Assembly: GCA_963555755.3 (NCBI GenBank)
Contig: OY820905.2
Span: 3,904,001-3,968,000, forward strand
Length of the DNA: 64,000 nucleotides
Direction of reading: 5' to 3'
Source: Nitrospirales bacterium
GTDB taxonomy: Bacteria; Nitrospirota; Nitrospiria; Nitrospirales; UBA8639
Part shown: piece after piece, positions 18,919 through 63,378 of the stretch
Numbering within the stretch: position 1 is the first letter of the stretch
Layout of the letters: each line of letters opens with the position of its first letter
Translations under genes and position numbers: made by a program
Notes under the pieces: generated by a model
The model's input: the letters and a program-made list of their open reading frames with translations, nothing else
Told to the model about the DNA's origin: nothing
Database searches by the model: none

Positions 18919-19037
18919 GGCCTGTTCAAAAAGGCTCGTCCAGCAAGGCCGCAGGACCTTTGGCGCGCGCAGCCTACAGGAGTAGGTGAGCACGACTAAG
19001 GTCCGAGAACGCCGCTGGCGGCCTTTTTCAACAGGCC
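18919..19037 (+). repeat. ERIC-like element family I, copy 1
   Basis: TIR ggcctgttcaaaaagg/cctttttcaacaggcc around core cagcaaggccgcagg...agcctacaggagtaggtga...aacgccgctgg. Confidence 0.8.
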
Positions 19038-19127
19038 ACTTGATTGACAGGGTTTTGTTGCCTGGGCTATATACGACGAGGTTGCCACAAGCCTCCATCG
19101 TGATACACTAGAGAATAAGGGCACTAT

Positions 19128-20042
19128 ATGGTTACGACAAGTGACAAAATTTGGATGGACGGCCAATTTGTGAATTGGAATGAGGCGAATGTCCATGTCC
19201 TCACTCATGCCCTGCATTATGGGTTAGCGGCGTTTGAGGGCATTCGTTGTTATAAGGGCATAAAGGGGTCGGCCATCTTTCGTTTGAACGAGCACGTTGA
19301 CCGTCTGTTCGAGTCAGCCCACATCATGGCCATGAAAGTGCCCTATAATAAAAAAGAGGTGTTTGAGGCGATTATCGAAACCGTTCGCGTCAACCGGTTG
19401 GAGTCGTGCTATATCCGCCCTTTGCTCTACGTGGGTTATGGGGAAATGGGACTGTTCCCAGGAAACAATCCCATTAAATTAAGCATTGCGGCTTGGCCCT
19501 GGGGGACGTATTTGGGTGAGGATGCGTTGGAGCAGGGCATCCGGGCTAAGTTGTCATCCTTCACTCGCCACCATGTGAATGTGTCGATGACGCGTGCCAA
19601 GGTCTCAGGGTATTATGTGAATTCGATCCTGGCTAAATGTGAGGCGAAAAACTCAGGCTATGATGAGGCAATCCTTCTGGATCCCGAGGGATACGTCGCT
19701 GAGGGAACCGGGGAGAATATATTTATTGTAAAAAAAGGTGTGCTGAAAACAACTCCGTTGACCTCCATTCTCGAAGGTATCACCCGAGATGCCATTATGA
19801 AGCTGGCTCAGGAGCGAAAAATCCCCGTGGTCGAAGAACGATTCACTCGTGATGCCATGTACGTAGCAGATGAAGTGTTTTTAACAGGAACGGCTGCCGA
19901 GGTGACGCCAGTTCGGGAGATAGACGATCGGGCAGTTGGCGAAGGTACGCGCGGGCCAGTGACGACGCTTCTGCAAAAAGCGTTCTTCGATATTGTAAAA
20001 GGCGAAGATTCGACTCACCAAAATTGGTTGGCCCCGGTTTAG
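19128..20042 (+). CDS. ilvE: Branched-chain amino acid aminotransferase
   Basis: 'HALHYG..FEGIR', 'YIRPL', 'EGTGENIF', 'ILEGITR', 'GTAAEVTPV'. Confidence 0.97.
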   Translation: MVTTSDKIWMDGQFVNWNEANVHVLTHALHYGLAAFEGIRCYKGIKGSAIFRLNEHVDRLFESAHIMAMKVPYNKKEVFEAIIETVRVNRLESCYIRPLLYVGYGEMGLFPGNNPIKLSIAAWPWGTYLGEDALEQGIRAKLSSFTRHHVNVSMTRAKVSGYYVNSILAKCEAKNSGYDEAILLDPEGYVAEGTGENIFIVKKGVLKTTPLTSILEGITRDAIMKLAQERKIPVVEERFTRDAMYVADEVFLTGTAAEVTPVREIDDRAVGEGTRGPVTTLLQKAFFDIVKGEDSTHQNWLAPV

Positions 20043-20079
20043 CGTCAGGCCAACCCCTGTCTTTCGTTCCTTCCTTTAA

Positions 20080-20242
20080 CCTAGAAACAGCAGTTGGATC
20101 ACAAAAGTCCGCGCAAGCTCTTGGCGCACCTGATAAAATACAAAAATGTCTTATCACCACCGAGGTGACTACGACTTTTTGTATTTCACCATGCACACCA
20201 ATATCTTACACGGCTTTTTTGCGCCCAACTGCCGTTTCTAGG
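20080..20242 (+). mobile_element. MITE family C, copy 1 (163 bp)
   Basis: TIR cctagaaac.gcagttgg; 5-bp TSD TTTAA on both sides. Confidence 0.92.
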
Positions 20243-20306
20243 TTTAAGGCTATTCCGATTAACCCAACTTCCGTTCTTTCAACGGATGGCGGAAGAACCA
20301 TAGAGT

Positions 20307-20487
20307 AAATCCGAAACTCGAATTTCGAAATCCGAAACAATTTCAAATGACAAAATGACCAATACCCAAAACGTCTAAAACAGCCAGTACGCCCTTTTCG
20401 GTGCGATTCTGCAACATTGGGCAGGATGGGTTTGAAACATTTGAATTTCAGATTTGTTTCGGATTTCGATATTCGGATTTCGAGTTT
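20307..20487. repeat. Heptamer-periodic long hairpin, family F, copy 1
   Basis: (CGAAATC/CGAAACT)-like units at left and complementary (GATTTCG) units at right. Confidence 0.8.
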
Positions 20488-20527
20488 ATGGGACGATATG
20501 TGGAGTGAAAAGGATTACTTGGGCTGG

Positions 20528-20872
20528 TTATTCGGAACTCTCAGCCGGTTTTTCGGAGGAAGTTTCGGTGGTAGGGGGTGTCGAAGCTGGTGTAGGTATT
20601 GACTCACTCGAAGTGGATGGAACATCAATCACGGAGGAAGCATGTTCTTGTCTCGACAGCATGGCCAAAGTTAAGGATGTGAGCATAAAGACGATCGCCG
20701 CACCAACTGTGACTTTGCTGAGGAACGTGCCTGGCCCTCGACTTCCAAAGACCGTTTGACTTGATCCGCCAAACGCCGCGCCGATTTCGGCCCCTTTGCC
20801 GGCCTGAAGCAGGATGGAGACAATCATGAGAAAGCACACAAAGAGGTGAACGATGACGGCGAGAGTGTACAT
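20528..20872 (-). CDS. secG: Preprotein translocase subunit SecG
   Basis: 'ILLQAGKGAEIGAAFGGSSQTVFGS', two TM segments; follows tpiA. Confidence 0.96.
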   Translation of the reverse strand: MYTLAVIVHLFVCFLMIVSILLQAGKGAEIGAAFGGSSQTVFGSRGPGTFLSKVTVGAAIVFMLTSLTLAMLSRQEHASSVIDVPSTSSESIPTPASTPPTTETSSEKPAESSE

Positions 20873-20892
20873 GTTTTTAGATTCTTGAATGT

Positions 20893-21660
20893 TTAATGAG
20901 AAGCCTGATCTGCAAGACAACAAATACTAGCAAAGCTGGTAGGGTCAAGACAAGCTTTTCCTACTAATGCCCCATCGATGTCTGCACAGTGAAACAAGGC
21001 CTCGGCATTTTGGGGGGACACGCTTCCTCCATACACAATTCGAACATCTTGAGCGACTGGTCCCCATTCAGCCGTGACGATCGAGCGAAGAAAGGCATGA
21101 ATCTCTTCAGCTTGTTCGACCGTAGCGGCTCGTCCGGTTCCAATGGCCCAAATGGGTTCATAGGCGATCGTGATCGTGGAAATTTTTTCGGCATCAAGAC
21201 CCGAAAGCCCTTTGATCAACTGATCTTTGACGATAGCTTGCGTGTGTCCGGCTTCGCGTTCCTCTAAGGTTTCGCCAATGCACACAATAGGAAGCAATTG
21301 ATGCTCCAATGCGGCTTTCACTTTTTTATTCACTTCTTCGTTACTCTCTCTGAACAGTTGCCGCCGTTCAGAATGCCCAACTATCACAGAGGAGCAACCC
21401 AGGGCTTGTAACATCGCACCAGAGATTTCGCCTGTGAAGGCTCCCTCAGCTTCCCAATGGAGATTTTGTGCCGCCAGCGCAAACCGATCATCAGTCGTCA
21501 TAGCCTGTTGAACGGCATACAGGCTGATAAAAGGTGGAGCTAAGAGAATGTCGATGTTGGTTGAAGTCGGCACGACCTTTCGGAATTCATGCACAAACTC
21601 CACGGCTTCCGTCGCGGTCTTGTGCATTTTCCAATTACCGGCAATGAGGCGAGTTCTCAT
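20893..21660 (-). CDS. tpiA: Triosephosphate isomerase
   Basis: 'AGNWKM', 'GHSERR', 'AYEPIWAIGTG', 'YGGSV'. Confidence 0.98.
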   Translation of the reverse strand: MRTRLIAGNWKMHKTATEAVEFVHEFRKVVPTSTNIDILLAPPFISLYAVQQAMTTDDRFALAAQNLHWEAEGAFTGEISGAMLQALGCSSVIVGHSERRQLFRESNEEVNKKVKAALEHQLLPIVCIGETLEEREAGHTQAIVKDQLIKGLSGLDAEKISTITIAYEPIWAIGTGRAATVEQAEEIHAFLRSIVTAEWGPVAQDVRIVYGGSVSPQNAEALFHCADIDGALVGKACLDPTSFASICCLADQASH

Positions 21661-21753
21661 GGGTGTGTGAAATACGATCGAAAAAAATCAAGTCAGATTG
21701 GGGCTAAAGGAATTTTGGTACTCATAAGTTGAACGGATTTGTTTCTGTCGTAC

Positions 21754-22046
21754 ACTCGAAATCCGAATATCGAAATCCGAAAAAAATCCAAAACTCGAAT
21801 GATCCAAACGGAGAATTTGGGTTTATGCAGTCAAGTATTTTTTTATTTTCAATTTGGGGCACCTCTACAAACCGTCCTTTTCCGTGATGGCGGCGTCAGC
21901 CGCGTGCTCACATCCTCATGTATTCGCCCATACACTCCGGTTTTCCGCGCGCGGCTTCCTTGCCCTCACAAAAAATGCCTGGTTTGTAGAGGTGCCCTTT
22001 GGTCATTAATAGTTGTTTCGGATTTCGATATTCGAGTTTCGGATTT
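21754..22046. repeat. Family F copy 2, containing MITE B copy 1
   Basis: ctcgaaatccgaatatcgaaatccgaa ... ttcggatttcgatattcgagtttcggattt. Confidence 0.8.
21857..21997. mobile_element. MITE family B, copy 1 (141 bp)
   Basis: TIR gggcacctctacaaacc; 4-bp TSD TTTG; near-identical to 26248-26388. Confidence 0.9.
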
Positions 22047-22070
22047 GTTCAACGTATTTCTGCGCAGAAT

Positions 22071-23264
22071 CTAACGATTGGGCAGAGCGGCGAGGCCGGG
22101 CATTTCCCCCCTCTCAAGAAGTTGGAGTGCGGCACCGCCACCGGTAGAAATAAACGACATGCTGTCGGTTTCTCCTGCACGATGGACAGCTAAGGCGGTA
22201 TCGCCACCGCCGACGATCGTCAGGGCGTAGGCATTAGCTACAGCATGAGCCATGGCTTGGGTCCCGCGCGCAAAGGCATCTCGTTCAAACATGCCCATGG
22301 GGCCATTCCATAAAATCGTTTTGGCATTTTGAACGGCTTCAGAAAACAATTTCACCGAAGCCGGGCCGATATCCAATCCATACCATCCTTCCGGAATTTC
22401 CTGGGTCGTGACAATTTTGGTTTCCGCTCCCGGATCGAGACTGGCGGCGATTACGCAATCCACCGGCAGATAAAATTTTATCCCGCGATCTATGGCATGT
22501 TGTTGAATGCCTTTGGCAAAATCCAGCATGTTCTCTTCGACGAGAGATTGGCCGATTTCCATGCCCATGGCTTTGATAAAGGTGAAGGCCATCCCGCCAC
22601 CGATAATGACCTTGTCCACCTTTTTGCCTAAATTCTCAATGACACCAATTTTGCCGGAGACTTTGGCTCCTCCAAGAATTGCCACAAAGGGTCGTATGGG
22701 ATTTTCCACCGCACCTTCAAGGTATTCGACTTCCCGTTTCATCAAATAGCCGGCGGCGGAGGCCTTGATGAATTTTGTGATTCCGGCTATTGAGGCATGG
22801 GAACGATGGGCTGCGCCAAAAGCATCGTTGATATACACGTCACCCAGGGAAGCGAGCTCCGACGCAAACTGATCATCATTTTCTTCTTCTTCAGAATGGA
22901 ATCGAAGATTTTCAAGCAGAAGTACGTCGCCCGGCTTCAGTTGGCTCACAAGGTTTTTCACTTTTGAGCCAACGCAGTCCGGAGAAAAAATGACATCTTT
23001 TCCCATGAAACGTCTGAGACGTTTGGCCACTGGCGCGAGGCTCAATTCTGGACAGGGTTTCCCTTTTGGGCGTCCAAGGTGAGAGCAGAGGATGACGCTT
23101 CCACCTTCGTCTACGGTGTGGTTGATTGTCGGAAGAGCGGCGCGAATACGTGAATCATCCGTGATTTGCAGGGAGTCATCCAGTGGCACATTAAAATCCA
23201 CCCGAATGATGACACGCTTGCCGCGAAGGTCAATCTGATCAATGGTTTTTTTGGTGATACGCAC
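22071..23264 (-). CDS. pgk: Phosphoglycerate kinase
   Basis: 'RVDFNVP', 'SHLGRP', 'LLENLRF', 'WNGPMG', 'STGGGA'. Confidence 0.98.
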   Translation of the reverse strand: MRITKKTIDQIDLRGKRVIIRVDFNVPLDDSLQITDDSRIRAALPTINHTVDEGGSVILCSHLGRPKGKPCPELSLAPVAKRLRRFMGKDVIFSPDCVGSKVKNLVSQLKPGDVLLLENLRFHSEEEENDDQFASELASLGDVYINDAFGAAHRSHASIAGITKFIKASAAGYLMKREVEYLEGAVENPIRPFVAILGGAKVSGKIGVIENLGKKVDKVIIGGGMAFTFIKAMGMEIGQSLVEENMLDFAKGIQQHAIDRGIKFYLPVDCVIAASLDPGAETKIVTTQEIPEGWYGLDIGPASVKLFSEAVQNAKTILWNGPMGMFERDAFARGTQAMAHAVANAYALTIVGGGDTALAVHRAGETDSMSFISTGGGAALQLLERGEMPGLAALPNR

Positions 23265-23324
23265 GAGGAATCCTTTCTACCCTCATGGTTTCCTGCAAAC
23301 GAGGGGACAGAAAAGACTTACGTT

Positions 23325-24356
<1,032 letters not shown>

Positions 24357-24504
24357 TCAAATTCACGTGGAAAAAGACCCAGAACCCCATAGTACTTTTG
24401 GGGGGGTATTAAGTCAAGCAATTGACCACTTGAAGATTGTGTGGGTAGCAGAGAAATGAAACTGAAGAGGATGGAACAGAATGTAACGTAAGAGGCATCG
24501 TTCC

Positions 24505-25485
24505 CTAGATCTTCATCGCATCCTTTACTTCGGCCAGGGTTTGGCGGGAGACCTCAGTGGCACGCTGGCATCCGCTCTGAACCACGTCTTCCAGCCGTTT
24601 TGGGTTGGCTTCGAGGGTTTTTCGGGATTCCCAAATGGGCGCCAGCCGTTCAACCATGGAGTCGGCCACAAATGTTTTGCAGTCGATGCAGCCGATTTCA
24701 GCAGTCCGGCATTCTTTGTTCACTTGGTCGAGGATTGCGGTGGTAGAGTAGATTTTGTGGAAATCATACACCGGGCAGATTTCAGGGTTCCCCGGATCCT
24801 TCCTCCTTACCCTAGCCGGGTCCGTGACCATGGTTTTGAGTTTTTGGCGAACCTCCGGTTCCGAATCTGAGAGGTTGATAGTATTCCCATAGCTCTTGCT
24901 CATTTTCCGACCGTCGGTTCCGATCACTTTGGGAAATTTCGTTAACAATTCTTTTGGTTCGACTAGTACCGGGGAATAGAGACTATTAAATCGTCTGGCT
25001 ATTTCCCGGGTGAGTTCGAGATGAGGCAGTTGGTCCTTGCCAATAGGCACCGCGTCGGCTTTATACAACAAAATATCAGCAGCCTGAAGAACGGGGTATC
25101 CCAAAAAACCATGCGTGGACAGGTCGCGGCCTTCGATGTGTTCTTGTTTTTCCTTGTAGGTGGGATTTCTCTCAAGCCAGGGTACAGGGGTGATCATCGA
25201 GAGCAGCAAATTCAAAATAGCGTGCTCGGGGACATGAGACTGGATGAACACCGTGGCACGTTCAGGATCAATGCCGGTAGCCAGCCAGTCAATCAACAGT
25301 TCATGAATGAAGGCTTGGAGTTGGCTGGTATCCTCATAATTTGTGGATAAGGCATGCCAGTCCGCGACAAAAAAGAAGCATTCATTGTCTTCCTGAAGCT
25401 TTCTCCAATTGTCAAGAGCCCCTAACAGATTGCCAAGATGCAGCCGCCCGCTGGGCTGCATGCCACTTAATACGCGTTGTGGCAA
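24505..25485 (-). CDS. trpS: Tryptophan--tRNA ligase
   Basis: 'SGMQPSGRLHLGN', 'YPVLQAADIL', 'KMSKS'. Confidence 0.98.
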   Translation of the reverse strand: MPQRVLSGMQPSGRLHLGNLLGALDNWRKLQEDNECFFFVADWHALSTNYEDTSQLQAFIHELLIDWLATGIDPERATVFIQSHVPEHAILNLLLSMITPVPWLERNPTYKEKQEHIEGRDLSTHGFLGYPVLQAADILLYKADAVPIGKDQLPHLELTREIARRFNSLYSPVLVEPKELLTKFPKVIGTDGRKMSKSYGNTINLSDSEPEVRQKLKTMVTDPARVRRKDPGNPEICPVYDFHKIYSTTAILDQVNKECRTAEIGCIDCKTFVADSMVERLAPIWESRKTLEANPKRLEDVVQSGCQRATEVSRQTLAEVKDAMKI

Positions 25486-25509
25486 CGTTCTCTCCTTATT
25501 CGTAAAAGA

Positions 25510-26217: not shown

Positions 26218-26247
26218 GAAGGTACTGTGACAATGGAAATAAATCTA

Positions 26248-26388
26248 GGGCACCTCTAAAAACCGTCCTTTTCTGTGATGGCGGCGTCAGCCGCGTGCTC
26301 ACATCCTCATGTATTCGCCCATACACTCCGGTTTTCCGCGCGCGGCTTCCTTGCCCTCACAAAAAATGCCTGGTTTTTAGAGGTGCCC
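26248..26388. mobile_element. MITE family B, copy 2 (141 bp)
   Basis: TIR gggcacctctaaaaacc; 4-bp TSD TCTA. Confidence 0.9.
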
Positions 26389-26434
26389 TCTAGGCTTGAG
26401 AAGCTACACAAAAATGAACATGTGGGTCATCAAC

Positions 26435-28458: not shown

Positions 28459-28606
28459 GGGTTCGCGCAAGGATAATTTCCCATGTTTGGGCGTCGATTC
28501 ATCCTGTCTGGCGGCGTTGCTCGTCCGAGGAGTATGCGCAGTCCTCGCGCCTTGCCAGATAGGTGTCTCAACAACCAAACATGGGAAATTCTCCTTGCGC
28601 GAATCC
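28459..28606 (-). mobile_element. MITE family A, copy 2 (small internal deletion)
   Basis: Reverse copy of the family A core, flanked TAA/TCA, in the divergent promoter region before xerD. Confidence 0.85.
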
Positions 28607-29690: not shown

Positions 29691-29879
29691 AATCGTGATC
29701 CGTCATCTGTGATGCGTGATCCGTAAAGAACAAAGTTGTTTCCCCTTCCCGTGCTTCACTAATCACTACGCTGGGTTTTTCTTTAAGAATTTATATTGCA
29801 GGGTTTCGTCCCCGCGCGACGAGGCACTGTTGTTTCGGCAAAAGGACCCAAAACCATGTTTGCCCGTGCGCGGCCCTAC

Positions 29880-30002
29880 AGAGAATGATCAAAACGTCTG
29901 TCAGCAAGGCCGCAGGCGCTTTGGCGCGCGCAGCGTACGTGGTAGTACGTGAGCACTGCAAAGGGTCGAAAACGCCGCTGACGGACGTTTTGATCATTCT
30001 CT
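29880..30002 (+). repeat. ERIC-like element family I, copy 2
   Basis: Same core as 18919-19037 but TIR agagaatgatcaaaacgtc/gacgttttgatcattctct. Confidence 0.85.
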
Positions 30003-30032
30003 TCCGGGTGCCTCCGCCTCCGTCCCGAATCA

Positions 30033-30189
30033 GGGTTCGCGCAAGAATAACTTCCCCTGTGTGGGTGGTGAGACGCCTGTCTGGCAAGGCGCGAGGACTG
30101 CGCAGACTCCTCGTATGAAAAGGACGAGCAACGCCGCCAGACAGGATGAATCGACGTCCAAACAGGGGAAGTTATTCTTGCGCGAACCC
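30033..30189 (+). mobile_element. MITE family A, copy 3
   Basis: Perfect 28-bp TIR gggttcgcgcaagaataacttcccctgt; flanks TCA/TAA. Confidence 0.9.
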
Positions 30190-30326
30190 TAAGATGGCTC
30201 AGGAACTCGCTCTGCTCAAACAGCCTTCGCCGAGAAGTCGATTCGGGACGGAGGCTCCGCCGTGCCCCACACAAGGAAGTGCTCTCCCCGAGGGACAACA
30301 AAAAGAAAAAATCCATTCCAAAGCAT

Positions 30327-30781: not shown

Positions 30782-30959
30782 GGACCTGAGCGAAAATAAC
30801 TTGGACATCTCGCATCCAATCTTCGGGCCATCTTTGAACGGGCCTCAATCGAAACACCCTCACCATAGCTGTGCTATGCCTCGGGTTTTTCTCAATCGTT
30901 CCGTCCAAATCCGACCCAAATCTTGGCGCGGGATGTCCAAGTTATTTTCCCTCAGGTCC
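30782..30959. mobile_element. MITE family E, copy 1 (178 bp)
   Basis: TIR ggacctgag.gaaaataacttggacatc; TTA on both sides. Confidence 0.88.
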
Positions 30960-31196: not shown

Positions 31197-31543
31197 GGAC
31201 CTGAAAGAAAATAACTTGGCCATCTCGCATCCAATCTTCGGGCCATCATTGAACCTAGAAGCAGCAGTTGGATCACAAAAGTCCGCGCAAGCTCTTGGCG
31301 CACCTGGCACAATACAAAAAGGTCTCATCACCACCGAGGTGACCACGACTTTTTGTATTGCACCATGCACACCAATTTCTTACACGTCTTTTTTGCGCCC
31401 AACTGCCGTTTCTAGGTTGAACGGGCCTCAATCGAAACACCCTCAACATAGCTGTGCTATGTCTCGGATTTTCCTCAATCGTTTCGTCCAAATCTGCCCC
31501 AAATCTTGGCGCGATATGGTCCAAGTTATTTTCTTTCAGGTCC
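31197..31543. mobile_element. MITE family E, copy 2, interrupted by family C copy 2
   Basis: TIR ggacctgaaagaaaataacttgg; TAA on both sides. Confidence 0.88.
31254..31416 (+). mobile_element. MITE family C, copy 2 (163 bp)
   Basis: TSD TTGAA. The empty site (single TTGAA) is visible in E copy 1. Confidence 0.93.
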
Positions 31544-33167: not shown

Positions 33168-33373
33168 GGGAATGTTGAAAAAAGCCGCCAGCCTTCGCCA
33201 AGGCTACGGCAGACAAGCCAGCGGTTCCATGCCTGCCGAAGCGGCTTCGCGCAGGCAGGTCGCCATTTTGCCGTGCTCAGGTACTATGAGTACGCTCCGC
33301 GCGTCAAAATGGCTACGGCCTTGCTGGATGGACCCTTCGGAAAGACTCAGGGCATGCTTTTTTGAACATTCCC
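33168..33373 (-). repeat. Family I copy 3 with nested ~25-bp mini-palindromes
   Basis: TIR gggaatgtt.aaaaaagc. Reverse core plus inserts such as cctgccgaagcggcttcgcgcaggcagg and cccttcggaaagactcagggc. Confidence 0.7.
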
Positions 33374-33485
33374 TCCCACTGAGGATGCTTAACTCATCTG
33401 GAGCCTTTATTGGCTATTGACGTGAAAAATTCAACAGTCTCTTAATTTCCCCTTTCTCTTCGTTCCTGATCGATCGAGTCTCATC

Positions 33486-44787: not shown

Positions 44788-46691
44788 CAGGGCTATTTCA
44801 TATTAAAGTGTAACTTTATAGATAATAAGGAATAATCGATTTAGGCTGGCTTTTTCTTTTCGTTTACGGCATACTCTTTTGCATGCCAGACGAATCGCCA
44901 AGCGGACAGCCGGACATTGATCTGAGGCAAGTCGTGGTTCGCCCAATTGTCCGAGACGAAAAGGACGCCTTCAAGACCCTTCTCGACAGACACCACTACC
45001 TCGGTCATGCCCCGCTGATTGGCCAATCGATACAATATCTCGCCTGTGTGCAGGATCGCTGGCTGGCCTTGCTGGTGTTTGCGGCGGCGGCCCTCAAATC
45101 GAGACCGCGAGACCACTGGATCGGCTGGCCCCCCTGTTTTCAATGGCAACGACTCCATTTACTGGCCAACAACACCCGGTTTCTCATGCTGCCGGGCTGT
45201 TCGCAAAAGAACCTCGCCTCGAAAGTCCTGTCGCTCTGCGCGAAACGGATCTCGTCCGATTGGCAACTGTACCACGGCTACCCCTTGCTCCTCTTAGAGA
45301 CCTTCGTCGATCCTGCCCGCTTCACCGGGACCTGCTATCGGGCCGCCGGGTGGCACGAGCTCGGTCTGACACGAGGGTTTCGCAAGTCGAACACGTGTTA
45401 TGTTCAGCATGAGAGACCGAAGCGCATCCTAGTCGTGCGGCTGCATCCCCAAGCCCGAGAGATCCTTGCACGCCCGATGCTTGATCAGCCCTATCAGAAA
45501 GGAGAAGCGCCTCAGATGAGATTGAATACAAAACAGACGGACTCCCTCTTTACGTATGTGGTGCAGCTGACCGATCCCCGCCATTTGCAAGGGCAACGGC
45601 ACACCCGACGCGCCCTCACGGCGATCATGTTCTGTGCCACCTTGTGCGGCGCGCGCGGCTATGAAGCGATCTCGGACTGGGCCCAGCAGTTATCGCAGCC
45701 GATGCGCAAGCGGCTAGGCTGTACTCAGCGAGGGGGGCGCTACCTCGTCCCGAGCCGCAGCACTCTTTACCGCTTTATCACGGCCGTCGACCCCTGTGAA
45801 GTCGATACCCTGCTCGGCCGGTGGCTGGACACCTTCGGCGGGGAGGATCAGGGCATTGCCATTGATGGGAAGACCATGCGGGGGACGTCGAAGGTCCCAA
45901 GCGAACAGCCCCACGTCCTCAGCGCCGTCACCCATCAAGCCGGGCGCCACCTCACCCAAAAAAAGTTCACTCCAAGACCAATGAGATCCCCTGCGTGCGG
46001 CCCCTGTTAGATGCGCTCGAGATCGCAGGGAAGGTGATCACGGCGGATGCGCTCCTCACCCAGAAAGAGATTGCCGAGTACCTGGTGCACGAACGCGGCG
46101 CCGACTTCGTCTTCACCGTCAAGGGAAACCAGCCCACCTTGAAGCACGACATTGAGGCCTTAGCGTTGCGAGCACGCCGGTGCGATTATGCCACCACCGA
46201 GAAAGGCCATGGGCAGATCACGACCCGCAGGATCTGGTGCGATGACTCCCTGAATGCCTATGTCAACTTTCCTCATGTCCAGCAAGTCTTCTGCATTGAG
46301 AGGGAAGTGACGCATCTCAAGCAGGGCCTCACGACCGTCGAAGCGGTCTGCGGTGTCACGAGTCAGTCCAAAGACAAGGCGGGGCCGAAGACCATCCTCT
46401 CGCAAAACCGAAAGCATTGGAGTGTGGAGAATAAGCAGCATTATGTGTTGGACGTCACCTTTGATGAAGACAGGAGTCAGATACGAAGTCTCAATGGCCC
46501 AATGGTCATGACCTGTCTGAGACGCTATGCCATCAGTCTCTTACGCCTGAAAGGCTACACCAATATCGCGCAGGCGTGTAGACTGCTCTGGGGCAAGCCC
46601 CATTTAGCCATCCGCATGGCCCTGCCCTGAAAAAGAGGGCACAAAAAACCTCATGGAATCCCTTGCTTATAAAAAGAATGAAATGGCCCTG
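44788..46691 (+). mobile_element. ISAs1-family insertion sequence (1904 bp)
   Basis: IRs cagggctatttcat / atgaaatggccctg (13/14 match). Perfect 10-bp TSD gatgttttgt at 44778-44787 and 46692-46701. Confidence 0.95.
44883..46630 (+). CDS. DUF4338-fused ISAs1 DDE transposase, with -1 frameshift at 45959-45965
   Basis: N-terminal 'HHYLG...NNTRFL...LETFVD..RFTGTCYRAAGW', then 'AIDGKT'. The -1 frame supplies 'KTNEIP', 'ITADA', 'VKGNQPTL', 'HWSVEN', 'LDVTFDED'. Confidence 0.9.
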
Positions 46692-51341: not shown

Positions 51342-51649
51342 GAATCCATTCCGATGTGAAAAAAAGTTCGTGTCCGAAGGATAAATCTTCTTATTCCACG
51401 GTGCTTGCTACAGGGTGACCCATGAGGCCTGCCCTGAGTGTTATCGAAGGGTTCCCCAATTGGAAAAGGGGGGTAGGGGGATTTTCAAATTATGTATTCC
51501 TTTCAATACCCTGCTATTTGGGCCGGGGAGTATTTATTAAAATCCCCCTCAATCCCCCTTTTCCAAAGGGGGAGATTAAACGGAGGGTCGAGGGGGGATC
51601 TTATGGAGGATTTAATAATGCCTACGGTAAAGTCACCTGTTCAAAATGG

Positions 51650-54601: not shown

Positions 54602-54671
54602 TTCAAAGACCCATCTGAAGCCGTTCTTAAAAAAGAGCGTGAGGGGAATTTTAAGGATTGAGAATTATGAG

Positions 54672-54762
54672 AAAATCTCCCCCAACCCCTCTTTTCCAAA
54701 GAGGGGAGCGTGGAGAGTCTTTCTTACTCCCCCTTTGGAAAAGGGGGACACAGGGGGATTTT
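54672..54762. repeat. Family H REP doublet, left of DUF559
   Basis: aaaatctcccccaacccctcttttccaaagagggg ... ccccctttggaaaagggggacacagggggatttt. Confidence 0.85.
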
Positions 54763-55147
54763 AAGTTTTCAATTCAGAAGAGCTCGAAGCCAATTGCGAC
54801 GTGACGTGTTGGTAGATAGCCTCAATGACATTTTCAGTCTCTTGTAGCACTTGGCCGTTATGAAACCGCAGGACCGTCAACCTTTGATTGGCGAGAAAGG
54901 CATCGCGTTGGTGGTCTTTAACTTCGTGCTGGTGTTCGAAATGCTGTGCCCCATCAACTTCGATGACTAATTTTGCGGTAGGCGCATAGAAGTCCACGAT
55001 GTAATTCCCAATACGTGTTTGTCGGTAGAATTGGACTCCTTGGATCTGTTTTCTCCGTAAATGCCTCCACAATTTTAGCTCGGCCTCGGTCATGGATTTC
55101 CGAAGAGTTTGTGCCTGTTGCTTGAGTCGAGGGTTGTATTTCAGCAT
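54761..55147 (-). CDS. DUF559 / Vsr-like endonuclease
   Basis: 'LRKSMTEAELKLW..LR', 'FYRQ..IGNYIVDFY', 'IEVDGAQH', 'RD..L...VLRF.N'. Confidence 0.92.
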   Translation of the reverse strand: MLKYNPRLKQQAQTLRKSMTEAELKLWRHLRRKQIQGVQFYRQTRIGNYIVDFYAPTAKLVIEVDGAQHFEHQHEVKDHQRDAFLANQRLTVLRFHNGQVLQETENVIEAIYQHVTSQLASSSSELKT

Positions 55148-55205
55148 CAAAACCGTTCCTCATTCCCCCTTAAGTAGGGGGATTTAAAAGGTTTGGAATG
55201 ATCGT

Positions 55206-55293
55206 AAAATCTCCCCTAACCCCTCTTTTCCAAAGAGGGGCGAAAAAAGAAATCATCTTTCCCCCTTAGAAAAAAGGGGACACAGGGGGATTT
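55206..55293. repeat. Family H REP doublet, right of DUF559
   Basis: Direct repeat of 54672-54762 with a different spacer. Confidence 0.85.
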
Positions 55294-55334
55294 AAAAGAC
55301 CTACAATCGCAACCACAATCTCGTCTAGCTTCAA

Positions 55335-55763
55335 CCTAGAAACGGCAGTTGGATCACAAAAGTCCGCGCAAGCTCTTAGGGTCCGTCACGAAATAACCGG
55401 GACAATTGGCCGAGACGATTTTGGAGCGAGCCAAGGAGCGAAGAGCGCGCATACCGGGAGTATGGAAGCGATGAGCGACGCCGGCGGAGCCCAAAAGCGT
55501 CCGGCCCTCCGGGGAGGCCCATCTTTGGCCCGGGGCAGCGTTGCTCCTCGGTCACATAGCCCCGCTAGGCTCCCTCGTCGCGCCTTGCCCCGATCACAAA
55601 TCTGGGCCTCCCAATTGTCCCGGTTATTTCGTGACGGACCCTGAGCGCACCTGGCAAAATACAAAAAGGTTTCATCACCAGAGAGGTGACCACGACTTTT
55701 TGTATTTCACCATGCACACCAATATCTTGCACGTCTTTTTTGCGCCTAACTGCCGTTTCTAGG
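55335..55763 (+). mobile_element. MITE family C, copy 4, interrupted by element D
   Basis: 429 bp = 163 + 263 + 3. Confidence 0.88.
55379..55641. mobile_element. MITE family D (263 bp) with two opposed ERIC-like cores
   Basis: 31-bp TIR gggtccgtcacgaaataaccgggacaattgg; flanks TTA/TGA. Confidence 0.88.
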
Positions 55764-57050: not shown

Positions 57051-57278
57051 TACGTCTGGCATCTTAGGTTATTGGAAAGTTGTCGGTAATTTGAAAAATT
57101 TTGGAATTATTCAACAGATCCTCCTTATGATTTTGCAGCTGCACGTAGCGATAGCATCCTCCAAACGGGGGGTCCGGTCAAGAGGTAAAATAGCCCCTGC
57201 GGCCTTGCAGAACTCGAGAGTCTGACCTAGGATGTCGTCACCAAATTTTACATTCAATTAATCTGGAGAAGTCCGTCC

Positions 57279-58199
57279 ATGCCTCGTGTCGTGTCGTTAA
57301 TCCCTAGCGCTACTGAATGGGTGTGTGCTTTAGGCGCACGGGACGATTTAGTGGGGCGATCGCATGAATGTGACTACCCTCAGAGTGTGACCGCTCTTCC
57401 CGTCTGCACATCCCCGAAATTCGATCCGCAAGGCAGCAGCCGGGACATTGATGATCGTGTTAAGAATCTTCTGCGTGATGCCGTTTCGGTCTATCGCGTG
57501 GATGTCCAACAACTCCGGGCCTTACATCCTGATTGTATCCTGACCCAAGCGCAGTGTGAGGTGTGTGCCGTGAGTCTGTCTGATGTGGAACAGATGGTCG
57601 GGGATTGGATAGGCACCAGGCCTTCGATTGTCTCGCTGTCGCCGAATCAGTTGCACGAGGTGTGGGACGATATCGGGCGAGTGGCTGGGGCTTTGGGTCG
57701 GAAGGAAGAAGGTGAGGCCTTATTGTCCACGCTTCGAAACCGCGTCGAGATCATCAGTGCACAAACCCGTCAGATTGGAGATCGTCCAACCGTTGGTTGT
57801 ATTGAATGGCTCGATCCTCTCATGGCCTCGGCCAACTGGATGCCCGAGCTGATCGATTACGCCGGCGGACAGAATGTGTTTGGTCATGCCGGTGAGCATG
57901 CACCATGGCTCACATGGGAGGCGGTTCAGAAGGAAGACCCTGATATTCTTCTATTGCTCCCCTGCGGCTTTTCTATCCCGCGGACACGCGAAGAAATTCA
58001 TCTTTTGACAGGCCAACCGGGGTGGAGTGACCTCAAAGCCGTGCAACAGGGGAGAGTCTATCTCACGGATGGCAATCAATATTTTAATCGTCCCGGACCT
58101 CGGCTGGTTGAGTCGGTGGAAATTCTGGCTGAGATCTTTCATCCGACCCTGTTTACGTTCGGGCACGAGGGAAAGGGCTGGGAGCGAGCTGTCAATTAG
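57279..58199 (+). CDS. Cobalamin-binding/BtuF-like protein
   Basis: 'RVVSLIPSATE', 'GRSHECDYP', 'YFNRPGPRL'. Confidence 0.88.
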   Translation: MPRVVSLIPSATEWVCALGARDDLVGRSHECDYPQSVTALPVCTSPKFDPQGSSRDIDDRVKNLLRDAVSVYRVDVQQLRALHPDCILTQAQCEVCAVSLSDVEQMVGDWIGTRPSIVSLSPNQLHEVWDDIGRVAGALGRKEEGEALLSTLRNRVEIISAQTRQIGDRPTVGCIEWLDPLMASANWMPELIDYAGGQNVFGHAGEHAPWLTWEAVQKEDPDILLLLPCGFSIPRTREEIHLLTGQPGWSDLKAVQQGRVYLTDGNQYFNRPGPRLVESVEILAEIFHPTLFTFGHEGKGWERAVN

Positions 58200-58220
58200 G
58201 TTCCCGGGCAGGTCAGGTTA

Positions 58221-58367
58221 GGGTTCGCGCAAGAATCACTTCCCCTGGTTGGGTGCTGAGAAACCTGTCTGGCAAGGCGCGAGGACTACGCATATTCCTC
58301 GGTATGGAAAGGACGAGTACGGGGTGGATTGACGCCCAAACTGGGGGAGGTATTTTTGTACGAGCCC
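58221..58367 (+). mobile_element. MITE family A, copy 5 (degenerate)
   Basis: Family A core; TTA on both sides. Confidence 0.85.
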
Positions 58368-58556
58368 TTATTCTTGGAGGGGGGGCTTTCCCTCATCATG
58401 CTCATCGCTCAATTGCTTCACCCGTTCAATGAGCCGACCCAGTTCGTCCATGGTTCCGTATGCCTGGTTCAGCATTTCTTGAAAGCGATCGTGCTGATCC
58501 AGTTCCGCAAGGTTGCGGACAAGGCGAGCGTAACCATGGCGAGTGCGATCGTCCAT
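58368..58556 (-). CDS. Small hypothetical helical protein
   Basis: 62 aa ORF between two MITEs; its stop coincides with the TSD. Confidence 0.4.
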   Translation of the reverse strand: MDDRTRHGYARLVRNLAELDQHDRFQEMLNQAYGTMDELGRLIERVKQLSDEHDEGKPPLQE

Positions 58557-58608
58557 TAGACGGGTCAAGGTCCCTTTGGGTGGTAGCGGTGGCGTGGGGT
58601 TTGATAAT

Positions 58609-58772
58609 CCTAGAAACGGCAGTTGGATCACAAAAGCCCGTGCAAGTTCTTGGCGCACCTGGCAAAATACAAAAAGGTCTTATCACCAGATGAGGTAACA
58701 CGACTTTTTGTATTTCACCATGCACACCAATATCTTACACGTCTTTTTTGCGCCCAACTGCCGTTTCGTAGG
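58609..58772 (+). mobile_element. MITE family C, copy 5
   Basis: Family C sequence; imperfect TSD ATAAT/AAAAT. Confidence 0.88.
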
Positions 58773-58913
58773 AAAATGAACTCTTCTATATCCCTCTCGT
58801 CACTTTAGAAAAATTTCTTGCAATTGAGGAGTTGATTGCCATTTTTGAGATCTGTAGAATGCGCATCAATGTTGCCTCAAGAAATAAATGGCCGCAGAAC
58901 GTGGCCTAATCGA

Positions 58914-59546
58914 ATGAGGGGATTCTTGGATTATGTGAGAAAGACAGTGATAGTGGTGCTCCTGTTCGTGGGCCTGATCGGGAGTCTGCCTGCGCAATCG
59001 TTTGGTGCCGTGGAAGCTCAGAACATCATTGAGGCTGGGACCGTTGAGGTTGGAATCCAAGCGGGCTACTGGCAAGCATTCACGGGATTGGGCAATGCCG
59101 ATTCCTCTAACCGTAGTGCGGTCTTTGTCCTTCCACAGTTTGGGCTCGTCGTAACTGATAAAATTGAGTTGGGATATTTCAGCGGAGCGATTGAAGTCCT
59201 GGTCGAACCGGTCGCCGCCCAATTTTTCGAACCCTTTGATGCCACGTTGGCAGGGGTGTCTTTCGTGGGACGATATAATTTCCTGTCATTTGGGCGCTGG
59301 ATGCCGTATTTTGATTTTGGCGTGGGTCTGTCTTGGACCGACTTGGCCCCAAGGATCCCGGAACAAAGCACCCCGTTTGAATTCTTGTTAGAAACTGGTC
59401 CGGGCCTGCAATATTTCATTACGCAAGAAATGGCGATCACCGGCGCCCTTCGTTTGCACCATATCTCCAATGCCGCTTTAGGTGACCGCAATACTGGCAT
59501 CAATGCCATCCTCGGATTGATTGGATTTTCATATTACATCGATTAG
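58914..59546 (+). CDS. Acyloxyacyl hydrolase / PagL-like outer-membrane beta-barrel
   Basis: Signal peptide, amphipathic beta-strands, 'HHISNA...NTGIN'; start uncertain. Confidence 0.82.
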   Translation: MRGFLDYVRKTVIVVLLFVGLIGSLPAQSFGAVEAQNIIEAGTVEVGIQAGYWQAFTGLGNADSSNRSAVFVLPQFGLVVTDKIELGYFSGAIEVLVEPVAAQFFEPFDATLAGVSFVGRYNFLSFGRWMPYFDFGVGLSWTDLAPRIPEQSTPFEFLLETGPGLQYFITQEMAITGALRLHHISNAALGDRNTGINAILGLIGFSYYID

Positions 59547-59579
59547 CCTGATGGTGCGCATCACTTCGTTTGACCATCA

Positions 59580-60167
59580 ATGAATCCCTTCCTGCCTTTA
59601 AGCACAGGCGCACGATTCTACGAAGAAATTGAACCTCGCCTCTCGGCCTTGGGTCTCGTTCGTGGACAGGCGACTCAAGCTAATCTCGTTCATGAGATTC
59701 AATCAACCTCCCTACCTGAACTGTTCGGCCAGAATGTGACGAGTGCTCCGATGGGGGCAGCCGTCAAAGCTGGCCTGTGTGTGGCCTTGGATGCGTGGGA
59801 TGACGCGCATGCCATTGCGCAAGATCTTGACACAGTTGAAGGCAGTTACTGGCATGGAATCGTTCATCGTCGGGAGCCGGATGCAGGGAATGCAAAATAT
59901 TGGTTTCGGCGCGTGGGCCAACATCCCGTCTTTCAACAATTAGGAAGTCATGAGACTCGTCAAACCCTGCCGGACACAACAGCCTTTGACCAAATCGTCC
60001 AATCTGGTTCGTGGGAACCATTTACCTTCATCGATCTCTGCATGGCATGTGAGAGGGGAAAAAAGACTGTACTCAATACGGAATTGCTGGCCCTTCAAAC
60101 CAAAGAAATCAAACTGTTGCTGAAGCATTGCATTCAAGGCACAATTGAACTCCAACTTCCCCCTTAG
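59580..60167 (+). CDS. Conserved hypothetical protein
   Basis: 'AHAIAQD...[22 protein letters not shown]'. Confidence 0.75.
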
Positions 60168-60287
60168 AAAAAGGGGGATTGAGGGGGATTTAACAATCCG
60201 TGTCTCCGTCATCAATTCTAGCTCAAGAAAAGCTCATCATAAAATCTCCCCCAACCCCTCTTTTTCAAAGAGGGGAGTAAGAGTGCC

Positions 60288-61292
60288 ATGAATAGTCTGA
60301 CTCTTTCCCAAAATATCATTCAGAGGTTTTGCGCAGAATATCTCACTTCTGTTTCTCCGATCATTGAACATGCCTCAACAGTTTCGCTGGCACAGCGCTG
60401 GAATTTGCTCTTTCAATGTTCGATTCAACCCAAATCTGAGTTGATCGATCCGGAAGTTCAAACCATGTTGATGGACCTGTATCAGGTGGCGACCCTGGAG
60501 GACTTATCCCCAAAATATGTGGGCGAGGGAGAGCGCTGGGGGGCGATCATTTCCCCTCGAATCGGGACATGGGCAAGGAAACGCGTCGCATGTATCGATC
60601 ATTGGTTTGTCGCCAATCCGGCTGACTTTTTTACCATGCTCGATCGTGTGAAGACGGAGTGGCCTTTTCCCTGTGATGCCATTCAACTTCCTATTTCCCC
60701 GAATCATCGTTCGGTTTCTTTTCTGGCGGAGTGGCCTCAGGCATGCTTGGAAGAATGTGTGTATATCGCTGACTGGGGTGCTACACGACCACCGTTGCTT
60801 TCCTCCAAAGTGTTCAAAGAGTTTTCTTTTGTTCACGATCAAGATCTAGATGCCTGGTGGCCAGACTTTTGCCACCTGTTAGAGCCAGAGTCCTTGGGAC
60901 TTGAGTCTGAGAACGTAACAAGTCAGTTACGAAAAGGCATGGAGCGAAGTCTCCACAGTGGAGGCATTCTCAACGTATATGACCATCAAGGCCTTGCAGG
61001 CCATGTGTCGTGGTATCGAGGCAGCGATGCGGAACTACTCATTCCGGAATGTTGGCAGATTCACTATATCTTGGTCCGCCCCAATCTTCGTGGTCAGAAA
61101 GTCGCTCAGTATCTCTATGCCTTGGCCGCTCGACGCATGAAATTGGAGCAAGTTTCTCTCGTGTGTGCACGTGTGCAAGGTGCCAATTTTCACAGTAGGA
61201 AAGCGCTCAAGGCTGTAGGTGCTGAAAATGTGTTGGAGTATTACACATTCCAGAGCGACTCCCAGGAAAGGTCCCGAAATTTTCTGCATTAA
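60288..61292 (+). CDS. Hypothetical protein with C-terminal GNAT domain
   Basis: 'ILVRPNLRGQKVAQ' acetyl-CoA motif A and 'N..SRKAL..VG'. Confidence 0.65.
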   Translation: MNSLTLSQNIIQRFCAEYLTSVSPIIEHASTVSLAQRWNLLFQCSIQPKSELIDPEVQTMLMDLYQVATLEDLSPKYVGEGERWGAIISPRIGTWARKRVACIDHWFVANPADFFTMLDRVKTEWPFPCDAIQLPISPNHRSVSFLAEWPQACLEECVYIADWGATRPPLLSSKVFKEFSFVHDQDLDAWWPDFCHLLEPESLGLESENVTSQLRKGMERSLHSGGILNVYDHQGLAGHVSWYRGSDAELLIPECWQIHYILVRPNLRGQKVAQYLYALAARRMKLEQVSLVCARVQGANFHSRKALKAVGAENVLEYYTFQSDSQERSRNFLH

Positions 61293-61553
61293 ATTGTAAT
61301 TCCTTTTTAAAATGGGGTCAGACTCGATTTTTTGTCCGGGAAGGTGTTAGCGGAGATGAGGAAAAGAAAGTGGACCCGACCCTCGGGCTTGGGCGAAGTG
61401 GCTAGGAAGGCTGAAAGCCGTCGCTGACGCGCCAAAACTGCTATGGCGGAGGCGTTTCACGTTTTTTGGCTCTAACGCTTCAAGGCGCAAATACGCAGGT
61501 TGACCTTCCCGAGAGGGCGAGGGAGAAGATATCCGTGGTCGGGAGGGATGGTG

Positions 61554-62918
61554 TTAAAACACCCCGATAGCGTGGAGGAGGACGATGGTGACGGCGATGG
61601 GGGCGATGAAGCGAATGAGTATTCGCCAGATGGAATAGCCTACCTCACTTTTCATGTCGAGCTCATCTTGGCTGGTGTCTTTGGTCATTAACCAACCGGC
61701 AAACACGGCAATAAAAATCCCGCCTAATGGCAACATGAGATTTGAAGTGAGGTAGTCGAGGTTTTCGAAAAACGTCATCCCAAACACTGTGGTTTCCGAC
61801 CAGATATTGAACGAAAACGCCGTGCCAAATCCTAACAACCATGTGGCGAGACCAGTCCAAAGAGCCGCTTGCCGGCGGGTCATGTTGAAATTTTCGATCA
61901 TCATCGTGACGGCTGGTTCTAGGAGTGAAATCGATGACGTCCAGGCCGCGACCAGGAGCAACACAAAAAAGAGCGTCCCAAATAGGGTTCCGGCGACCAT
62001 GTTGCCGAAGGCCACGGGGATGGTTTCAAAAATGAGGCTGGGTCCTGCTCCAGGTTCGAGGGCATTGGCGAACACGATCGGGAAAATGGCCATGCCCGCG
62101 AGGAGAGCCACCATCGTATCGAAAATAGCAATGGCTATCGAGGTACTCGCGATGGATGTCCCTTTGGGAACGTACGAGCCGTAAATCATGATTATGCCTA
62201 TGCCGAGGCTCAAACTGAAAAACGCCTGGCCCATGGCCGCGTGAATGCTGGCGCCAGTGAGTTGGTTGAAGTCAGGCGTGAAGAGGTAGTCGAGCCCTTT
62301 CATGAAGTAGCCCGTGGTCATGGCATAGCCTACGAGCACGAGGAGTAGCACGAACAGCGCTGGCATAAGATAGGTGACAGCCTTTTCCAATCCGCTTTTC
62401 ACCCCTCGGGCCACGATATACACGGTGATGATCATGAACACCGTATGCCAGCCCACCTGAACGAATGGATTGCCGACGAAGTCTCCAAATAAGGTCGAAG
62501 CGTCATTGCCGTTTAAGTTAGAAAAATTGCCTGTGACCGAATGGAGGATATACCCAAGAGTCCACCCGCCGATGACGCTGTAATAGGAAAGGATCAGCAT
62601 GCTGGCTAAGGTGCCGAGCCATCCGATGAGCTGCCAGCCTTGGCTGGCATTGTTTTCTGCCGCCAATGCCCGCATGGTGTTGACCGGTGTCTGTTTTCCG
62701 CGACGACCGATCATCACCTCGGCCATCATCATGGGAATGCCCAATGCCGCGACACAGAGGATATAGATCAAGACAAACGCGCCTCCGCCGTGGATGCCCG
62801 TGAGATAGGGGAATTTCCAAATGTTCCCGAGGCCTACCGCCGCGCCGGTGGCGGCCATGATAAAGGTCCAGCGTGATGCCCATTGGCCGTGGATCGATTG
62901 TTGGTCGGAAGAAGGCAT
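61554..62918 (-). CDS. Sodium-dependent transporter (NSS/SNF family)
   Basis: 'GAAVGLGNIWKFPY', 'GQAFFSLSLG', 'TSSISLLE'. Confidence 0.95.
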   Translation of the reverse strand: MPSSDQQSIHGQWASRWTFIMAATGAAVGLGNIWKFPYLTGIHGGGAFVLIYILCVAALGIPMMMAEVMIGRRGKQTPVNTMRALAAENNASQGWQLIGWLGTLASMLILSYYSVIGGWTLGYILHSVTGNFSNLNGNDASTLFGDFVGNPFVQVGWHTVFMIITVYIVARGVKSGLEKAVTYLMPALFVLLLVLVGYAMTTGYFMKGLDYLFTPDFNQLTGASIHAAMGQAFFSLSLGIGIIMIYGSYVPKGTSIASTSIAIAIFDTMVALLAGMAIFPIVFANALEPGAGPSLIFETIPVAFGNMVAGTLFGTLFFVLLLVAAWTSSISLLEPAVTMMIENFNMTRRQAALWTGLATWLLGFGTAFSFNIWSETTVFGMTFFENLDYLTSNLMLPLGGIFIAVFAGWLMTKDTSQDELDMKSEVGYSIWRILIRFIAPIAVTIVLLHAIGVF

Positions 62919-62991
62919 GAAGGATCCTTAAAGGGTGCTTTGGCGGCGGAGTGTATCGTTCACGTTCGATGCTTGCAAGGGTTTTTTCTTA

Positions 62992-63147
62992 GGGCTCGCA
63001 CAAAAATAACTTCCCATGTTTGGCCTCGATCCATCCCGTTTGGCGGTGTTGCTCGTCCTTTCCATACGAGGAGTATGCGCAGTCCTCGTGCTTTGCCAGA
63101 CAGGTATCTCAGCACCAAAACATGGGAAGGTAGTCTTGCGCGAACCC
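62992..63147 (-). mobile_element. MITE family A, copy 6
   Basis: Reverse core; TTA on both sides. Confidence 0.88.
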
Positions 63148-63221
63148 TTAAGTTACACTGGCTAAAATACTGCCGACTTGAGATCGGGAAGGGGGCTGAT
63201 TATAGTTGGTCGGCTTGGTAA

Positions 63222-63378
63222 GGGCTCGCGCAAGAATACCTTCCCCTGTTTGGGCCTCGATCCATCCCGTTTGGCGGTGTTGCTCGTCCTTTCCATACGA
63301 GGAGTATGCGCAGTCCTCGTGCTTTGCCAGACAGGTGTCTCAGCACCAAAACAGGGGAAGGTATTCTTGCGCGAGCCC
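63222..63378 (-). mobile_element. MITE family A, copy 7
   Basis: Perfect 30-bp TIR gggctcgcgcaagaataccttcccctgttt; TAA on both sides. Confidence 0.9.

What the first reader, a model, noticed from the sequence alone, without database searches (positions are those of the whole stretch)
18919..63378. ERIC-like core shared by several elements with interchangeable termini
Seen: families I, A, B and D share CAAGG...[short hairpin]...ACGCYG, and family E shares the central hairpin only. The hairpins are AGC-CTAC-agga-GTAG-GTGA (18971), AGC-GTAC-gtggta-GTAC-GTGA (I copy 2), CATAC-tcctc-GTATG (A) and CATAGC-aca-GCTATG-GTGA (E). TIRs and TSD lengths differ between families (3 bp A/E, 4 bp B). I copies 1 and 2 have nearly the same core but largely different TIRs. 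Established, from memory: enterobacterial ERIC has AGC-TTAC-ATAA-GTAA-GTGA flanked by CAAGG and AACGC. Inference: a conserved structured core that is carried by the ends of different IS families, extending ERIC-like elements far outside Gammaproteobacteria and implying a function for the core.
Basis: partly seen in the sequence, partly recalled or inferred. Interest (0 to 1): 0.72.

Follow-up and report, generated by a model that had tools for sequence, protein, structure and literature searches.

The report
ERIC-type hairpin core in many MITEs
Hundreds of small gene-less jumping repeats in this genome, with four kinds of ends, carry a related central sequence that also sits in E. coli's ERIC and Rickettsia's RPE repeats and in at least ten bacterial phyla; it is predicted to fold on one strand into a hairpin with two mismatch loops one or two helical turns apart, which likely serve as a binding site for a still unidentified host protein.

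Summary
About 580 core matches sit in MITE families with 3-, 4-, 5- and 8-bp target duplications. Family F has the ends of a resident IS66; family B has IS5-type ends. A covariance model built only from this genome's cores gave 6 hits on the whole E. coli K-12 chromosome, all ERIC copies, and hit Rickettsia RPE1/RPE3 loci. The core recurs in 10-11 phyla. It is predicted to form a one-strand rod with two purine-mismatch loops whose spacer is 9-10 or 18-21 nt and never between, although the spacer sequence has turned over. A D/A chimera crosses over inside the shared motif. Corrections: 'I copy 1' is the right part of a 194-bp element starting at 18845; I copies 1 and 2 have related, not unrelated, arms; Correia shares only the basal motif. 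Function is not shown: no overall strand bias, and coreless copies carry target duplications. The scan reported this core before in at least eight other windows, one in this genome. My literature searches found no description of it.

The parts
18845..19038 (+). Family I MITE, 194 bp, 5-bp duplication CTTGA; outer left end, AT-rich linker, then the hairpin 18919-19037
   Evidence: absent at the orthologous site in 5 of 5 relatives
18944..19014 (+). Long core (71 nt) of I copy 1: basal CAAGG/AACGCCG, apical GCAGC-CTAC-loop-GTAG-GTGA
   Evidence: R1 86.5 bits, training member
29881..30001 (+). I-type hairpin (copy 2; core 29905-29977) inside a larger composite repeat; true ends not resolved
33168..33441 (-). 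Family I MITE, 5-bp duplication ATTAA; 3' basal half displaced by small inserted repeats
   Evidence: R1 44.7 bits, held out
14551..14707 (+).
28459..28606 (-). Family A copy with a 9-nt deletion in the core (28512-28554)
30033..30189 (+). Family A copy, core 30085-30136, inserted in the same composite repeat
58220..58370 (+). Degenerate family A copy lacking the 3' basal word
62992..63147 (-). Family A copy
63222..63378 (-). Family A copy
21857..21997 (-). Family B MITE (141 bp, IS5-type ends), long core 21891-21962
26248..26388 (-). Family B MITE, 4-bp duplication, long core 26282-26353
55379..55641 (.). Family D MITE (263 bp) with two short cores on opposite strands, 55432-55483 (+) and 55536-55587 (-), inserted in a family G element
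30782..30959 (-). Family E MITE (3-bp TAA): apical hairpin and tandem G.A loops, no CAAGG/ACGC basal motif
31197..31543 (-). Family E copy split by a family G element (31254-31416)

Best explanation
These are several families of non-autonomous DNA transposons (MITEs) that carry one homologous core, shared with ERIC and RPE repeats, between ends of different IS types; the core is predicted to fold on one strand into a rod with two purine-mismatch loops one or two helical turns apart, and it likely acts in cis, in single-stranded or cruciform DNA at the donor site, as a binding site for a widespread host protein that favours copying or survival of the element. Shown: families, duplications, shared core, fixed spacing, phylum range, one chimera. 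Inferred: ends are moved by DDE transposases in trans; ends change by crossover in the shared basal word, by left-right homogenisation, and by gain of a new outer end. Not shown: the fold, DNA rather than RNA, and the protein.
For: Spacer between the two motifs is 18-21 nt in 110 of 112 distinct GTDB cores (pattern allowed 18-40), and 9-10 nt in 8 or 18-21 nt in 80 of 88 validated metagenome cores with none elsewhere (pattern allowed 5-35). Spacer interiors are 34% identical between elements against 31% shuffled, yet pair with their own partner (score 8.7 against 4.5). Apical 4-bp stem is fully paired in 109 of 112, 30 expected. A non-canonical position covaries C.A/A.G in 91 of 94 and 86 of 88. 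Outside the basal motif purine-purine oppositions outnumber pyrimidine-pyrimidine 272 to 32 on the core strand. No symmetric 2x2 or 3x3 loop was converted to Watson-Crick in any copy of A, B or E. A donor-side benefit predicts no orientation bias among daughters: none in tandem intergenic sites (A 64:52, B 40:32, I/K 59:73, E 32:33, F 9:5). Terminal loops are not RNA-type (GNRA 3, UNCG 2 of 196). Precedent for a protein reading the same A.C/A.G mismatch on a DNA hairpin: TnpA-REP (PMC3479197, passages read). Chimera with crossover in a 12-nt shared word.
Against: The core is not needed to move: three 59-bp coreless B copies each have their own TTAA duplication, and E (88) and G (69) reach high copy number without the basal motif. 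No leading/lagging bias (smallest p 0.069). DDE transposases act on duplex ends (established knowledge). Some orientation signals point to RNA: antisense next to stop codons in family I (27:6 after correcting ends; 14:5 with duplication-defined ends), 7 of 9 Ruminococcus and 5 of 13 E. coli copies; sense in 6 rRNA/tRNA-linked loci. The basal 5' word has drifted in one ERIC subfamily (3 inspected of 22 viral matches). DNA-type GNA loops are also rare (1 of 196). No protein was identified.
Confidence: 0.42

Rival explanations
1. The core works as RNA: in co-transcribed copies the core strand folds and its phased loops steer a double-stranded-RNA-binding protein or nuclease such as the RNase III dimer, making insertions tolerable or changing mRNA stability.
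For: ERIC and Correia are reported to affect transcripts through RNase E and RNase III, with orientation mattering (PMC2229807 sections read; PMC2649163 passages). Invariant G.T pair in 67 of 67 aligned cores, imposed by the search pattern. G.T over A.C 45:22 in closing stems. Core on the transcribed strand in 6 rRNA/tRNA-linked loci, 1 doubtful exception, of 214. Antisense preference next to stop codons in family I, Ruminococcus and E. coli. The C.A/A.G swap fits sheared-pair isostericity in RNA (recalled).
Against: No overall sense bias in any family. Near stop codons A is 20:18, E 13:18 and B is biased the other way, 13:4, so that signal follows the ends rather than the core. Few GNRA/UNCG loops. 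Patchy distribution: 7 of 60 sampled genomes of the Ruminococcus locus's phylum.
Confidence: 0.32
2. The core has no binding partner. It is inherited from one old element, persists because mismatches break up an otherwise toxic palindrome and resist repair, and spreads because the shared word is a crossover point between families.
For: Arms copy each other: rare variants have the partner restored in 54 of 228 (A), 35 of 173 (E), 27 of 84 (I), against 2-3 expected, so covariation can arise without selection. Coreless and basal-less families move. The chimera shows crossover.
Against: In A and E the copying is almost confined to the outer 30 bp (A: 45 of 161 outer, 1 of 93 inner). It does not explain two discrete spacer lengths with randomised sequence or the same loop sequences in 10-11 phyla.
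Confidence: 0.18
3. The core is a substrate of an HUH (RAYT/TnpA-REP-like) single-strand nuclease, which moves or processes it independently of the IS ends.
For: The basal loop has the same A.C, A.G, G-C arrangement as the REP bulge bound by TnpA-REP (PMC3479197). Strand-specific hairpins are typical of HUH systems (same paper).
Against: Only 3 of 17 Y1_Tnp matches have a core element within 1.2 kb, against 4.7 for random genes. Elements have DDE-type ends and duplications. No free cores with their own ends were seen among 582 core matches.
Confidence: 0.08

Closest known systems
ERIC / IRU / RU-1 of Enterobacteriaceae
   Same: Same basal and apical motifs, same spacing class and same apical stem variants in E. 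coli K-12 copies; model from this genome finds only ERIC-type copies in that chromosome.
   Different: ERIC is about 127 bp with TA termini (PMC2229807). The families here are 141-263 bp with 3-, 4-, 5- or 8-bp duplications and other ends.
Rickettsia palindromic elements RPE1 (TIGR01045) and RPE3 (TIGR03775)
   Same: R1 gives 28 hits at E<=0.05 in a Rickettsia genome; 2 of 6 translated Rickettsia hit loci pass the RPE1 (71.7 bits) and RPE3 (85.1 bits) cut-offs.
   Different: RPE1 and RPE3 loci carry the apical motif but an altered basal one; RPEs often fuse in frame into genes, whereas copies here are almost all intergenic (0-2 per family inside called genes).
Correia repeat-enclosed elements (CREE/NEMIS) of Neisseria
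   Same: Viral loci with the CREE end words given in PMC2649163 have a 55-nt CAAGG...AACGCCG core; pairwise z 6.6-6.8 to family A.
   Different: Apical part differs; the short-core model scores them only at E 0.2-0.27. TA ends.
MITEs of IS66 and IS5 families
   Same: F shares its terminal 14-16 bp and 8-bp duplication with a 12-copy IS66 in this genome; B shares its end word and 4-bp duplication with an IS5-type element.
   Different: The interior is not a deleted IS; it is a shared cassette unrelated to the partner IS (no core match in the IS66). A 2011 review states MITE cores of different taxa show no similarity (PMC3184786, passage).
REP / RAYT (TnpA-REP) of E. coli
   Same: Same A.C/A.G mismatch next to a G-C pair.
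   Different: REPs are about 35 nt with a GTAG tag and lie beside rayt; here no link to Y1 genes, one extra loop base, and DDE-type ends.

Membership tests
MITE (non-autonomous DDE element) | Terminal inverted repeats | tested here: met
   Both ends found in 160 of 163 A, 120 of 123 B, 38 of 40 D, 79 of 88 E, 11 of 16 F
MITE (non-autonomous DDE element) | Target-site duplication | tested here: met
   3, 4 and 8 bp; 5 bp in 65 of 250 I-type cores, control 2; 185 unresolved
MITE (non-autonomous DDE element) | Short, intergenic, multi-copy | tested here: met
   141-263 bp, 16-199 copies, 0-2 per family inside called genes
MITE (non-autonomous DDE element) | Cognate transposase with the same ends | tested here: inconclusive
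   Met for F (IS66, same genome) and B (IS5-type, viral contig L043); none found for A, D, E, I
ERIC | Homologous central core | tested here: met
ERIC | About 127 bp with TA termini | tested here: not met
   lengths and duplications; ERIC features from PMC2229807
RPE | Core similarity to RPE1/RPE3 loci | tested here: met
   (apical motif; 2 of 6 Rickettsia loci over cut-off)
RPE | Frequent in-frame insertion in genes | tested here: not met
   with my own gene calls
Correia/CREE | Whole-core homology | tested here: inconclusive
   basal words identical, model score E 0.2-0.27
REP/RAYT | Flanking a rayt gene | tested here: not met
   3 of 17 against 4.7 expected
REP/RAYT | Binding and cleavage by the HUH nuclease | not testable with these tools
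   needs in-vitro assay
Curated RNA family (Rfam 15) | Match at gathering score | tested here: not met
   0 in the window; no match over gathering on a core in 20 loci

The most novel reading that the evidence does not exclude
ERIC, RPE, probably Correia and many undescribed repeats in at least ten phyla form one superfamily defined by their cargo, not their ends: a folded module with two helically phased mismatch loops, read by a conserved host protein, that works as a transposase-independent enhancer and can be refitted with the ends of whichever IS is active.
Probability: 0.35. Interest if true: 0.85.

Novelty: new variant of a known kind. Interest (0 to 1): 0.64.

Why it matters
ERIC, RPE and Correia have been studied for decades as unrelated, genus-specific repeats whose origin and mobilisation are open. 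This genome also holds a matched pair, family F and its IS66, with which the role of the core in transposition can be tested directly. It shifts MITE classification from ends to interior, and shows three routes by which ends can be exchanged.

Tried and rejected
IS630 at C1:2332330 as partner of A: rejected, its near-identical copies lack A arms and it sits between two A left arms. Partners for A, D, E, I: nothing in the genome's DDE hits (20 of 70 PF01609 matches inspected as group representatives), viral scans, plasmids and phages, 300 phylum genomes or 40 relatives. Strong near-stop bias of family I (10:52): partly an artefact of wrong ends; reduced to 6:27 and 5:14. RAYT link: rejected. 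K-turn: no 3-nt bulge beside the tandem G.A pairs (by inspection). Shine-Dalgarno or CsrA sites: the common variants CAAGGC and GCAGC break them (consensus recalled). Within-family G.T against A.C counts were mixed (A 374:186, B 45:40, E 117:140). RNA runs were contigs only and show no strand, ends or level. R1 found no hit at E<=0.05 in 2 of 5 genomes that hold pattern matches. De Gregorio 2005 could not be read; its results are cited through reviews.
Full report
Setting. The window is C1:3904001-3968000 of a 4.62-Mb two-contig genome. The closest named matches to family I are Nitrospira/Nitrospirales records, so the host is probably a Nitrospirota; this is inferred. Rfam has no match at gathering score in the window.

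Census. BLAST with one seed per family gave near-full copies: A 163, B 123, I 156 (199 with the related K seed), D 40, E 88, F 16, G 69, together 107,826 bp or 2.3% of the chromosome. A regex plus arm classification gave 582 core matches, a few possibly double. Duplications are 3 bp for A, D, E, 4 bp for B, 8 bp for F, 5 bp for G. F ends match a 2,413-bp IS66 present 12 times with 8-bp duplications. The B end word bounds a 1.3-kb IS5-type element with a 4-bp duplication in 1 of 9 viral matches. Family I was mis-bounded at first: 111 of 250 I-type hairpins have an outer left end, 60-79 nt further out in 107 of them, and 62 of 250 have a 5-bp duplication with that end, 3 with the hairpin alone, control 2. 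The window copy runs 18845-19038 and is absent in 5 of 5 relatives.

The core. The predicted fold is a rod with a basal loop (C-AA-G facing C-GCN-G, then a 2x2 loop) and an apical loop (GSA facing GA, next to a G.T pair and a 5-bp stem). Long cores (I, K, B, F, ERIC) are 70-75 nt, short ones (A, D) 52 nt. E keeps only the apical part; G has neither word.

ERIC test. E. coli K-12 copies were located with a recalled primer word (13 sites). Model R1 used 13 cores of this genome only. On the whole chromosome it gave 6 hits: 5 at primer sites and a sixth that reads as ERIC. In a 27-locus test all 13 ERIC loci and all 4 held-out F copies were hit. A and D need their own model (R2), which finds 9 of 9 short cores picked from other scans (7 at E<=1.5e-6) but Correia only at E 0.2-0.27.

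Range. One GTDB scan stopped at 120 loci. The pattern left out the 3' basal half, yet 79 of 122 matches have the exact word downstream against 9 in a control window, and 94 of 112 distinct cores have a variant with a closing stem. Record titles span Pseudomonadota, Desulfobacterota, Nitrospirota, Bacillota, Bacteroidota, Balneolota, Acidobacteriota, Planctomycetota, Actinomycetota, Campylobacterota and Myxococcota (phylum assignment from my own knowledge, 10 if Balneolota is merged). R1 gave 68 matches at E<=0.01 in 100 of these 120 loci. Whole-genome R1 searches hit 3 of 5 genomes; in the Rickettsia genome two hit loci are RPE1 and RPE3 by NCBIfam. Distribution is patchy: 7 of 60 further genomes in one phylum. 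Flanks fall in 125 clusters from 191 cores.

Geometry. The left spacer is 19-20 nt in 98 of 112 GTDB cores. With 5-35 allowed, 88 validated of 131 metagenome matches give 9-10 (8) or 18-21 (80); among all 118 with a paired apical stem, 14 are 9-11, 101 are 18-21 and 3 are 25. The viral scan gave 15 validated of 103, one at 25, plus 22 apparent 13-nt cases; the three inspected are ERIC-type copies with a drifted basal word and an internal CAAGG. The step of about 10 nt per strand is one helical turn and does not separate B-DNA from A-RNA. Spacer sequence is near random between elements but self-complementary. Pair counts on the model alignment exceed all shuffles (91.9% against 76.8%), but that alignment is fitted and pattern-selected.

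How ends change. (1) Crossover: a D left arm joined to an A core and A right arm inside a shared 12-nt word, flanked by TAA, once in this genome (1 of 582) and at what looks like the same site in G018. A-type ends also enclose an E-type interior in about 7 copies, and F-type ends enclose an unrelated interior. (2) Left-right homogenisation: rare variants are compensated 10-20 times more often than expected in A, E, I and G but hardly in B (2 of 88), almost only in the outer 30 bp of A and E; gene conversion or template switching would both do this. (3) A new outer end, as in family I.

DNA or RNA. With my own gene calls no family shows strand bias in tandem intergenic sites or by replichore. 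Near stop codons family I is antisense-biased even after correction (6:27, p 0.0003), as are Ruminococcus and E. coli copies, but A and E are not and B is reversed. Six rRNA/tRNA-linked loci are sense. Coreless B copies number 3 against about 120 with core. I therefore favour a donor-side DNA role (0.42) narrowly over an RNA role (0.32). Neither is shown.

Literature. Nine searches found no paper describing a core shared among these repeats; the library lacks most subscription papers, and supplements were not opened. Seen: PMC2229807 (parts 1-2 of 3), passages of PMC10969869, PMC5896051, PMC3184786, PMC2649163, PMC11602168 and PMC3479197. De Gregorio 2005 and Wilson and Sharp 2006 were not read. 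The scan itself reported this core in other windows; these notes are not independent support.

Verdict. Real and widespread; a new variant of a known kind. The elements are MITEs, not ERICs or RPEs by membership, but their core is homologous to both. Interest 0.64.

Noticed in passing
window 55330-55760, 31197-31543, 29800-30260: Nested insertions: D inside G, G inside E, A inside a composite repeat; D inserts mostly at one site of G genome-wide.
   Followed up: partly
G000:C1:226959 and 20 other sites: A 1,469-bp IS4-type element with 21 copies whose 10-bp duplications were nearly the same word in the 5 copies printed, pointing to strong target specificity.
   Followed up: no
L007; window 44883-46630; G000:C1:1963627: DruA-like (PF14236) sequence rides on a 12-copy IS66 and is fused to a DDE_Tnp_1-associated domain in the window; a similar N-terminus appears by eye on a 13-copy DDE element.
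   Followed up: no
G000:C1:2332330-2333549 (L006): IS630 flanked by two family A left arms in inverted orientation, a ready-made composite with A ends.
   Followed up: partly
L057, L146, L148, L545, L546, L569, L572: In Bacillus and Sporosarcina the core lies in rRNA operon leaders, spacers and a tRNA cluster, always on the transcribed strand.
   Followed up: partly
L068; L467; L048: A nearly family-F-like core and inner arms in a Eubacteriales genome, and B-type ends around a different core in Pseudomonas and a viral contig, suggest transfer across phyla.
   Followed up: no
window 33168-33441 and other I copies: Small hairpin inserts of 20-50 nt recur in the arms of I elements.
   Followed up: no
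window 54642-55296, 51453-51572, 60158-60275: C-rich/G-rich palindromic repeats, two sets flanking a DUF559 gene at 54761-55150.
   Followed up: no
window 20080-20242 (family G, minus strand): G lacks the motif words but has the same one-strand purine-mismatch pattern (fold -97.6 against -60.7 for the other strand).
   Followed up: partly
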